A DNA stretch of 64,000 nucleotides from contig OZ024740.1 of the NCBI GenBank assembly GCA_964016885.1, forward strand, positions 285,634,001 through 285,698,000. Direction: 5' to 3'. The notes beneath the pieces were generated by a model, which saw nothing but the letters and a program-made list of their open reading frames with translations, searched no databases and was not told where the DNA came from. The position numbers were made by a program, and so were the translations under genes. Source of the DNA: Eledone cirrhosa. Lineage: Eukaryota. Of the stretch, positions 37,276 through 58,053 are shown piece by piece. How positions within the stretch are numbered: position 1 is the first letter of the stretch; the number at the start of each line of letters is the position of its first letter.

Positions 37276-38040
37276 TCATGTGTGTTGTGTGAGCATGGCC
37301 TTTTCTTTTTTTTCTTTTGCTGCAGCATATGCAGAAAGGAATCTAAGTTCTTGGATGGGTTAAAAGGTCATGTTTCATGCCACCCATGTATGAGAAAAAG
37401 GTCAAGGGATGGTAATTCTTGTATGCATGTACGTTATGTATGTATTTTATGCATGTGTGTGATGCATGCATGTGAAACAAACCATATAATAGGACAGCTG
37501 CAGCCTGTCAATGTTCATTGCCTCCATACCAGTAATTAAATTGAATTTTGGTATTGCTTCACATGGAAGGGGTGGATGTTTTGGGTGTGGTTCTTATAGA
37601 CGTAGTTATTATTAATTATATATTTTGTGTGGTGTGTACATACTAGTTTGGGTCAGGATTTGATTGTTTGTTTGTTTGGTTCATAGATAGCATTAGATTG
37701 GTTTGAAGTCACTCATTTGATTTCACATTTATGATATATAAAAGTTATGTGACAAGTAAATAGAAATAACAAAGCAAACAACACAGTACATTGAAGAAAT
37801 ATATTAGTTTAACACTTGGTATAAAAAGAAAAGAGTCCTTCATCTGAAGATCGAATTATAAATAAAAGATAAAGAGTGAGAAGAAGGAGGATATATATAT
37901 ATATATATAGTTGTATGGTTGCATGAAAAATGTGTCCATAGGCAGTATGGCGGTTGAGCACTCGATGCTCGCGCAGAACAGAGTATAATACTATAAGGAT
38001 AAGGAACAAGGATTCAGTGTTGCATCATAACATATTTAAT

Positions 38041-38134
38041 AACATATTACATGTGTTTCACTATCGATCAGCTCGCGGCAAGACCTATTATAGATCGAAC
38101 CTGACTCTGTAATCAAAAGGTCGTCAGATATACT
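38041..38134 (-). ncRNA. Type I hammerhead ribozyme (mirror copy, left arm)
   Basis: AGTATAT CTGACGA [long stem II] GAAAC ACAT GTA ATATGTT. Confidence 0.75.
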
Positions 38135-38156
38135 TAGTATATGAATTTGTATACTA

Positions 38157-38250
38157 AGCATATCTGACGACCTTTTGATTACAGAGTCAGGTTTGATCTA
38201 TAATAGGTCTTGCCTCGAGCTGATCGATAGTGAAACACATGTAATATGTT
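38157..38250 (+). ncRNA. Type I hammerhead ribozyme with extended stem II
   Basis: Stem I AGCATAT/ATATGTT; core CTGACGA (38164-70); stem II CTTTTGATTA/TGATCGATAG plus AGGT/GCCT and GATCTA/TAGGTC; GAAAC-ACAT-GTA; predicted cleavage after 38243. Confidence 0.8.
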
Positions 38251-38299
38251 ATTAAATATGTTATGATGCAACACTGAATCCTTGTTCCTTATCCTTATA

Positions 38300-38343
<44 letters not shown>

Positions 38344-38636
38344 GTAAGTCCAAAGAATCATTAGATAAAATATATACAGTGTTTCCTCTCCCAATCAGTA
38401 TAAATTAACCACACAAAAAATCATTTAAATGAGGCTATAAGTTTAAAATGTACTTATGAAGAAATAGTAGACAAGTGATACAGATTCGTTTCCGTGATGT
38501 ACAGTCATATACACTTACCTAGTATTTCTCCTAGCCTGTAGAAACTGACTAGACAAATAGTTAACTACACGGAATTAGGTACAAAATTGAAGTTAGAAGA
38601 AAAAATGCACATAAAGTTTACCAAAATTCTCATAGG

Positions 38637-38718
38637 CTCTACCAACCGGTGGTTTCGTTCAACTTTTTGGATAGATCTGGTCTTGGATAAATCCACGAGG
38701 CTCGGAACTCATCAGGAG
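38637..38718 (-). ncRNA. Type I hammerhead ribozyme, canonical core
   Basis: CTC CTGATGA GTTC...TGGAT...ATCCA...GAAC GAA ACCA CCGGT TGGT A GAG; G10.1-C11.1 pair, GUA triplet, short 3-bp stem I. Confidence 0.8.
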
Positions 38719-38904
38719 ATAGTCCAGTCTGGACTAAGATTCTTTTACCATGATTCTCATCAGAAATTAATTCAAAATGGCTAAGAACCATCACGTGGCC
38801 AGTGGTCAAGGCAGAAAGTTTGTGATTGGTGCTTGTCGGCGAGTAGGCTTGTTGAATACTGCCTAAAGTTTTACTCAACCTTACGGGAGTATATATTAAA
38901 TTCA

Positions 38905-38940
<36 letters not shown>

Positions 38941-53667: not shown

Positions 53668-54133
53668 CTAAATACAAAGTAAAACCTACTACAGTCAGTA
53701 GGCATCTCTAACAAAATACACCCCCGTCCCACCACCCCCACCCCATCCACACCGCCCCCTTCTATGTAAAGTTATGTTGGTGCCACACCATCCAGGCCGA
53801 AACAAATGAGATCGTGTAGGTGTCACGACAAAAAAACACAGTCCACGCTGTAATGTGGCCGTGTAGGCAACACGGTAAAAACCTCCCAGACCCACACTGT
53901 AAATGTGGGTCTGGGAGGTTTTTACCGTGTTGCCTACACGGCCACATTACAGCGTGGACTGTGTTTTTTTGTCGTGACACCTACACGATCTCATTTGTTT
54001 CGGCCTGGATGGTGTGGCACCAACATAACTTTACATAGAAGGGGGCGGTGTGGATGGGGTGGGGGTGGTGGGACGGGGGGTGTATTTTGTTAGAGATGCC
54101 TACTGACTGTAGTAGGTTTTACTTTGTATTTAG
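53668..54133. repeat. 466-bp inverted repeat (229/230-bp arms, 7-nt loop)
   Basis: Arms appear identical apart from one C5/G6 homopolymer indel; loop CTGTAAA at 53897-53903. Confidence 0.97.
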
Positions 54134-58009: not shown

Positions 58010-58053
58010 TACCGAGAACAATTGTTTCACCATAGCGGATCCTCAGCTCGTTA
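58010..58053 (-). ncRNA. Minimal type I hammerhead ribozyme, intact core
   Basis: TAACGAG CTGAGGA T CCG CTA TGG T GAAAC AATT GTT CTCGGTA; palindromic AATT loop III; predicted cleavage between 58017 and 58016. Confidence 0.88.

What the first reader, a model, noticed from the sequence alone, without database searches (positions are those of the whole stretch)
37990..38301. 312-bp palindrome encoding two mirror-image hammerheads
Each arm encodes a full hammerhead with a ~60-nt extended stem II and a C-U mismatch at 10.1/11.1. A transcript from either strand therefore contains one ribozyme preceded by its own antisense. Inference: this sets up competition between a ~150-bp duplex (ribozyme silenced; ADAR or Dicer substrate) and self-cleavage. 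The few arm mismatches argue for a real, aged duplication rather than a read artefact. Loop ACAT may be a CpG-decayed palindromic ACGT.
Basis: partly seen in the sequence, partly recalled or inferred. Interest (0 to 1): 0.78.

Follow-up and report, generated by a model that had tools for sequence, protein, structure and literature searches.

The report
Head-to-head Penelope-type retrotransposon stump insertion
The palindrome is real and each half carries a hammerhead-ribozyme motif, but it is one of hundreds of copies of a short repeat whose mirror-image layout is likely a routine by-product of how Penelope-type retrotransposons insert, so it is probably ordinary rather than a built-in antisense switch.

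Summary
In detail: 152-bp arms, 3 mismatches, each with a type I hammerhead motif and a 61-nt stem II. The unit is longer than reported (37910-38301), because the left arm carries an extra ~80-nt tail. It belongs to a ~700-nt non-coding, 5'-truncated family in (TA)n runs (at least 278 arms genome-wide) with two fixed 3' ends. Of 102 places examined, 42 are inverted pairs; all join 5'-to-5' and 37 have exactly one tailed arm. This is the published 'inverted pLTR plus tail' layout of Penelope-like elements (PLEs). An RT/endonuclease element in this genome shows the same layout, but no ORF was linked to this family. The family loop is ATAT (palindrome ACATATGT), not ACGT; this copy's ACAT breaks the dimer palindrome. 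The duplex (-262 kcal/mol) would swamp the ribozyme fold rather than compete with it. No expression data; no A-to-G excess among copies. One useful point: in 20 of 35 pairs each arm holds sequence the other lacks, which favours two separately primed cDNAs over fold-back copying. This scan noted a similar system in another genome. Interest is low.

The parts
37891..37909 (.). (AT)n run, left flank; inferred insertion target
   Evidence: sequence; 114 of 122 family 3' ends have a dinucleotide run within 24 nt, against 97 of 2666 window positions
37910..37989 (-). ~80-nt 3' tail, present on the left arm only; ends at the family's long end (L)
   Evidence: matches reference positions ~619-698; 57 of the family 3' ends listed lie at 694-698
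37990..38149 (-). left arm: 5'-truncated family copy; 38142-38149 is its 5' overhang beyond the right arm, not a separate loop
38041..38134 (-). type I hammerhead motif, left: core CUGACGA 38127-38121, GAAAC-ACAU-GUA 38059-38048, predicted cut after 38048
   Evidence: cleavage not tested
38150..38301 (+). right arm: 5'-truncated family copy ending at the family's short end (S)
38157..38250 (+). type I hammerhead motif, right: stem I 38157-38163 with 38244-38250, core 38164-38170, stem II segment 38171-38231, GAAAC-ACAU-GUA 38232-38243, predicted cut after 38243
   Evidence: cleavage not tested
38302..38340 (.). (GT)3(AT)n run, right flank; inferred insertion target
   Evidence: sequence

Best explanation
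This is one insertion of a short, non-coding, hammerhead-bearing repeat family, likely moved by a Penelope-like retrotransposon (PLE) enzyme, and its palindrome was likely made during integration rather than selected as a switch. Shown: the family is 5'-truncated, sits in (TA)n, has two fixed 3' ends about 80 nt apart, and forms 5'-to-5' pairs with one tailed arm. Inferred: a PLE endonuclease cuts both strands of a (TA)n run; reverse transcription starts on each cut end inside the element RNA, at site S on one side and site L on the other; each cDNA runs toward the RNA 5' end (about 25-40 nt before the hammerhead core) or stops early; the two cDNA ends are joined almost bluntly. When only one side primes, a solo copy results. 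The template RNA was uncut. In the family the hammerhead is predicted to work as a weak dimer through ACAUAUGU; this copy has lost that palindrome, and any read-through transcript would form a 152-bp duplex with the ribozyme off.
For: Layout census of 102 distinct places from 130 loci: 42 opposite-strand pairs, all 5'-to-5'; 37 long+short, 5 with one damaged end, 0 short+short, 0 long+long; 60 solos (32 short, 19 long, 9 other). 3' ends pile up at two positions. A sister family gives 19-20 long+short among 22 pairs. Seven of the 102 places also hold 5'-to-5' pairs of other hammerhead families. L150 holds an RT/GIY-YIG-type element with a 973-bp, 98%-identical inverted copy at its 5' side that carries the tail, and that tail is the start of the ORF. 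Same layout in print: PMC8557442, PMC3846280; opposite-strand hammerhead pairs in PMC4209133; both-strand cutting, two internal start sites and uncut template in PMC11167929. Arms share non-majority bases at 69 sites against 15 expected, so they come from one source. In 20 of 35 close pairs the short arm reaches more than 10 nt further 5' than the tailed arm (16 of 23 among pairs found only by 3' queries). 0 of 65 arms start at the predicted cut; 19 of 65 start at reference 441-460. Hammerhead core is less diverged than other non-CpG sites (3.1% vs 6.2%, permutation P 0.003), and the stem II geometry is kept with a different sequence in the sister family.
Against: No RT or endonuclease ORF was linked to this family: the longest copies start at a microsatellite and none of 65 tail-end matches runs on into family or ORF sequence (63 are followed by simple-repeat-like DNA, 2 were fetched and are a deletion product and a chance match). 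The tail is about 80 nt, against 30-40 in the papers. No direct tandem of this family was seen. Target-site duplications cannot be read in (TA)n. Pfam found no family in the two L150 fragments; the Atlas gave only HTH_animal/RVT_1 clusters, so its PLE label rests partly on recalled motifs. Loci were picked by similarity, so 42 of 102 is not a genome-wide rate (10 of 27 for the 60-nt 3' query, 22 of 30 for the tail query). Three of the 42 pairs are 108-1145 nt apart and may be separate insertions. The sister family has one long+long pair and probably one short+short pair. Later deletions at the palindrome centre could mimic unequal arms.
Confidence: 0.83

Rival explanations
1. Same PLE-type insertion, but the second arm arises by fold-back (self-priming) copying of the first, with the short end set by endonuclease resolution and unequal arms caused by later deletions at the centre. 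This is close to the self-priming model of PMC3846280. It differs from the best explanation only in the priming step.
For: Arms share rare variants (ACAT in both arms here; 69 vs 15 shared sites). Junction gaps are mostly -10 to +14 nt. Palindrome centres are deletion-prone (general knowledge).
Against: Short-ended solos are the commonest class (32 of 102), so S works as a stand-alone start. In 12 of 23 pairs found by 3' queries at least one arm reaches the 5' wall (441-467), and in only 4 do both; deletions across the centre should shorten both arms.
Confidence: 0.3
2. A selected ribozyme/antisense switch or editing/small-RNA substrate at this locus.
For: Arms are 98% complementary and both cores are intact, so a read-through transcript would be long dsRNA.
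Against: The layout is the family's routine product; the duplex is about 240 kcal/mol more stable than the ribozyme fold; stem III palindrome is broken here (self-duplex -5.2 vs -7.0 kcal/mol); no A>G excess in copies (0.017 vs T>C 0.020); the one RNA run laid gave 0 contigs (a different organism label, so weak).
Confidence: 0.04
3. A MITE-like or Helitron-derived DNA element whose internal deletions give the variable centre.
For: Inverted arms, TA-rich targets and an internal microsatellite-like segment.
Against: The two outer termini are not inverted repeats of each other; 60 of 102 places are one-armed and variably 5'-truncated; the hammerhead motif and tail are PLE features.
Confidence: 0.06
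4. Assembly or fold-back read artefact.
For: No record spans the whole stretch.
Against: Three arm differences, asymmetric ends at family-defined positions, the junction in contigs at flank depth, and 41 other pairs with their own junctions.
Confidence: 0.02

Closest known systems
Penelope-like element insertions with inverted 5'-truncated pLTR and tail (PMC3846280, PMC8557442; passages read)
   Same: 5' truncation, head-to-head inverted copy, tail on one end only, microsatellite targets, hammerhead near the 3' end
   Different: No ORF linked; tail about 80 nt rather than 30-40; no direct tandem seen; stumps of 150-250 nt dominate
PAc (Poseidon, Anolis) in vitro mechanism (PMC11167929; parts 1-2 of 4 read)
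   Same: Two fixed start sites that define a tail, AT-rich targets, uncut hammerhead RNA as template, both target strands cut and extended
   Different: There the tail is the start of the ORF; here related families keep the tail sequence with frame-shifting indels, so it looks like an RNA signal
PLE type I hammerheads with palindromic stem III (PMC4209133, parts 1-2 of 4 read; PMC6765202 and PMC3088659, passages)
   Same: CUGANGA/GAAA/NUH core, short palindromic stem III, opposite-strand pairs 100-700 bp apart reported
   Different: Stem II segment of 61 nt with bulges; C.U or U.U instead of G10.1-C11.1 (a U-U start is reported in PMC3088659); sister families have variant cores (CUGAAGGA, CUGAAAGA, CCGAAGGA, CCGAGGA)
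Non-LTR retrozymes (bioRxiv 10.64898/2026.07.22.740005; part 1 of 5 read)
   Same: Non-coding, type I hammerhead, proposed PLE derivative
   Different: Retrozymes are head-to-tail tandems; this family is dispersed, solo or head-to-head

Membership tests
Penelope-like element (EN+) | ORF with RT and GIY-YIG endonuclease | tested here: not met
   No ORF linked to the family in the loci fetched, including 16 wide regions round long copies. It can be at most a non-autonomous derivative or an orphaned pLTR.
Penelope-like element (EN+) | Hammerhead motif in the terminal region | tested here: met
Penelope-like element (EN+) | 5' truncation with fixed 3' ends | tested here: met
Penelope-like element (EN+) | Inverted 5'-truncated copy adjoining the 5' end | tested here: met
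   42 of 42 pairs 5'-to-5'; one apparent 3'-to-3' pair proved to be two such pairs back to back
Penelope-like element (EN+) | Tail at one end only | tested here: met
   37 of 42 pairs; about 80 nt, longer than the published 30-40
Penelope-like element (EN+) | Partial direct tandems forming pLTRs | tested here: inconclusive
   Not seen for this family in 102 places; seen in the L150 element
Penelope-like element (EN+) | Mobilisation by a PLE protein | not testable with these tools
   needs an in vitro or cell assay
Type I hammerhead ribozyme | Core CUGANGA, GAAA, NUH with stems I-III | tested here: met
   core more conserved than the rest
Type I hammerhead ribozyme | G10.1-C11.1 pair | tested here: not met
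   position 10.1 C 58/T 30 of 95, position 11.1 T 105/A 19 of 126
Type I hammerhead ribozyme | Self-complementary stem III for dimer cleavage (PLE type) | tested here: inconclusive
   Met in the family (ACAUAUGU) and the sister family (ACAAUUGU); broken in both arms of this copy
Type I hammerhead ribozyme | Match to an Rfam hammerhead model | tested here: not met
   0 hits at gathering thresholds; no E-value search was run
Type I hammerhead ribozyme | Self-cleavage | not testable with these tools
   no assay; no RNA reads of this organism
Non-LTR retrozyme | Head-to-tail tandem units each with a hammerhead | tested here: not met
MITE | Terminal inverted repeats at both outer ends | tested here: not met
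   left end is the tail, right end the short end

The most novel reading that the evidence does not exclude
These stump insertions are a natural record of PLE integration in which both ends of a double-strand cut prime cDNA on the same kind of RNA, one always at site S and the other always at site L, so the published inverted-pLTR-plus-tail layout is two independent cDNAs and not a self-primed fold-back. The clade's conserved 61-nt stem II and tail would then be the protein-loading signal, kept even where the catalytic core drifts.
Probability: 0.4. Interest if true: 0.5.

Novelty: new member of a known kind. Interest (0 to 1): 0.24.

Why it matters
As a locus it matters little: it is one copy of a common repeat layout. 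As a family it offers hundreds of short, young insertions with two fixed ends and measurable arm lengths. These can discriminate between models of how Penelope-like elements build their inverted repeats, a step the cited papers leave open. The pairs also seed the genome with 50-250-bp perfect inverted repeats, which would be dsRNA wherever transcribed; that is a family-level by-product worth checking against editing and small-RNA data. The long-stem-II hammerheads are missed by Rfam thresholds.

Tried and rejected
Rfam scan: nothing. Alternative core CUGAUCGA near 38220: no stem I pairing by inspection. Walking upstream to a parent ORF: three searches and 16 wide regions ended at (TA)n/(GA)n; nearby PLE ORFs (L013, L037/L150, L135-L137, L140) have their own ends and hammerheads and look like separate insertions in the same microsatellites. 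Walking downstream of the tail: 2 of 65 matches without simple repeats were fetched and led nowhere. Tail as protein start: related tails differ by frame-shifting indels. 5' ends at the ribozyme cut: 0 of 65. Editing trace: none. Pfam on L013, L037 and L150 fragments: no family; only an L140 ORF hit GIY-YIG. The sister-family query contained a fold junction, so its pair rate is inflated and is not used as a rate. The paper on dimer-cleaving PLE hammerheads (PMC5785218) was not held and is known only through PMC6765202. Searches for hammerhead+Penelope+octopus, and for non-autonomous+Penelope+palindrome+microsatellite+cephalopod, found no description of this family; the library lacks most subscription journals and Repbase/Dfam were not searchable. 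No supplements were read.

Full report
Observation. Each arm reads CUGACGA, a 61-nt stem II segment that opens with C.U, GAAAC-ACAU-GUA and a 7-bp stem I. A descriptor scan found 3 hits in the window and 1 hit in 20 shuffled windows. Rfam gave no hit at gathering thresholds. Contigs of 65 nt from 2 of 4 public runs cover the centre junction without a difference, at the same depth as a flank contig. These runs are one sample, perhaps the assembly's own, so they show the junction is in the data but are not independent.

Setting. The window lies in a 3.0-Gb, AT-rich, microsatellite-rich eukaryote genome. A cephalopod is my guess from genome size and repeat style; it was not tested. No long gene-like ORF was evident in the window, and whether the site is intronic is unknown.

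It is a repeat family. The right arm drew 2005 first-look candidates, of which 40 were scored. A 23-nt stem III motif has 278 exact matches; at 5-6% divergence this suggests on the order of 1000 arms (inference). The longest copies are about 700 nt: a microsatellite-like 5' part, a unique middle, the hammerhead, and a tail. Related sequence is in a second organism's run (144 contigs at 85-99%, deepest over the GAAA/stem III region).

Anatomy of copies. 130 loci from five searches collapse to 102 places. 3' ends fall at two positions, short (S, reference 616-620) and long (L, 694-698), and 114 of 122 are followed by a dinucleotide run. 5' ends vary, with a wall about 25-40 nt before the core (19 of 65 arms found by 3' queries start at 441-460, only 2 further up) and none at the predicted cut. 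Sixty places are solos. Forty-two are opposite-strand pairs, all joined 5'-to-5'; 37 have one L and one S arm, 5 have a damaged end, none is S+S or L+L. Three of the 42 are 108-1145 nt apart and may be unrelated insertions. Our locus is an ordinary L+S pair: the left arm runs 38149 to 37910 including the tail, the right arm 38150-38301, and the '8-nt loop' is just the left arm's longer 5' end. The loci were chosen by similarity, so these are not genome-wide rates. One apparent 3'-to-3' pair proved to be two L+S pairs duplicated back to back.

The layout is general in this genome. A sister family gave 20 L+S, 1 L+L, 1 S+other and 3 single among 25 loci; in one of the 20 (L178) the two nearest arms are both short, so 19 is the safer count. 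Seven of the 102 places hold 5'-to-5' pairs of other hammerhead families. [quoted passage not shown] Pfam did not name its fragments, the Atlas gave HTH_animal/RVT_1 clusters, and the PLE label rests partly on motifs I recall (YVDD, YIGET, CxxC linker). No ORF could be tied to our family.

The hammerhead. The family loop is ATAT: 28 of 37 arms (2 ACAT, 7 unmatched), and 92 of the first 100 rows (4 ATGT, 3 ACAT, 1 AAAT, 0 ACGT; 178 rows not listed). ACAT occurs 4 times in the genome, twice here. So the ancestral stretch is the palindrome ACAUAUGU, the sister family has ACAAUUGU, and this copy has lost self-complementarity. The core is less diverged than other non-CpG sites (3.1% vs 6.2%, P 0.003), on a sample biased toward good matches. 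The sister family keeps the same stem II geometry (mismatch, 2 bp, mismatch, 4-5 bp, 2-nt bulge) with a different sequence in 2 of 5 copies folded exactly and more loosely in the others, but its cores are variant. A single arm does not fold as a hammerhead at minimum energy. This fits reports that PLE hammerheads are weak, dimeric or protein-assisted (PMC4209133, PMC11167929, PMC6765202). The whole palindrome folds at about -262 kcal/mol on either strand, so a read-through transcript would be a duplex with the ribozyme off. Copies show no A>G excess over T>C. There is no RNA evidence for this locus.

Mechanism. Shown: two fixed 3' ends, microsatellite targets, 5' truncation, 5'-to-5' pairs with one tail, and arms from one source (69 shared non-majority sites against 15 expected over 33 pairs; no partner shuffle of 500 reached half the observed rate). 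Also shown: in 20 of 35 close pairs the S arm reaches more than 10 nt further 5' than the L arm, while the L arm has the tail, so neither arm as it stands is a copy of the other. Inferred: a PLE protein cuts both strands of (TA)n and primes one cDNA at S and one at L on uncut RNA, and the two are joined. This extends PMC11167929, which found both strands cut and extended and two internal start sites. The rival is fold-back self-priming (PMC3846280) followed by centre deletions; it explains shared variants but less well the common S-ended solos and the pairs with one arm at the 5' wall. Gene conversion between arms could also explain shared variants such as ACAT.

Comparison with what is known. 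PMC8557442 and PMC3846280 describe the inverted 5'-truncated copy, the one-sided tail and microsatellite bias as typical of PLEs; PMC4209133 reports opposite-strand hammerhead pairs 100-700 bp apart. The family works like a PLE terminal region but fails the ORF test, so I file it as a likely non-autonomous PLE derivative, not as a PLE. It is not a retrozyme (no tandems) or a MITE (no terminal inverted repeats). What differs from the papers is the ~80-nt tail, the 61-nt stem II with a 10.1/11.1 mismatch, and the variant cores of sister families.

Verdict. Real, explained, and a new member of a known kind. Interest 0.24. The most novel reading left open, two-site twin priming as the origin of PLE inverted repeats, has probability about 0.4 and would deserve about 0.5.

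Noticed in passing
window 38590-38910, - strand: A second, degenerate hammerhead-like motif with a long stem II and a near-palindromic stem III lies about 350 bp to the right; a decayed core also lies in the left neighbour (37741-37890). The (TA)n runs here collect nested hammerhead-bearing repeats.
   Followed up: partly
window 53668-54133: A 467-bp near-perfect palindrome (98.5%) made from the 3' region of a different repeat, which follows a LINE-like ORF in L040; no hammerhead core found in it.
   Followed up: partly
window 58017-58046, - strand: Small hammerhead-like motif with stem III stretch ACAATTGT.
   Followed up: no
L176-L200, L094, L142: Sister families with the same stem II and tail but variant cores (CUGAAGGA, CUGAAAGA, CCGAAGGA, CCGAGGA); 2159 first-look candidates. 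Possibly natural core variants or loss of catalysis with the fold kept.
   Followed up: partly
L001-L130 flanks: About ten other hammerhead families with stem II segments of 13-79 nt and mostly palindromic stem III turned up in the flanks, so this genome is very rich in such motifs.
   Followed up: partly
L150 3153-8339: Near full-length RT/GIY-YIG-type element with stop codons, terminal repeats with a hammerhead, and a tailed inverted copy; a candidate clade for the mobilising enzyme.
   Followed up: partly
L201 250-1350: Two long+short pairs duplicated back to back round a (TA)n run, with flanks included: a second-order palindrome.
   Followed up: yes
L026 237-1490: A family copy sits directly at the end of a 417-aa C2H2 zinc-finger array frame, on the same strand; it may interrupt a gene.
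   Followed up: no
window 38288-38302: The short end coincides with a pyrimidine tract ending in AG, which resembles a splice acceptor; may be chance.
   Followed up: no
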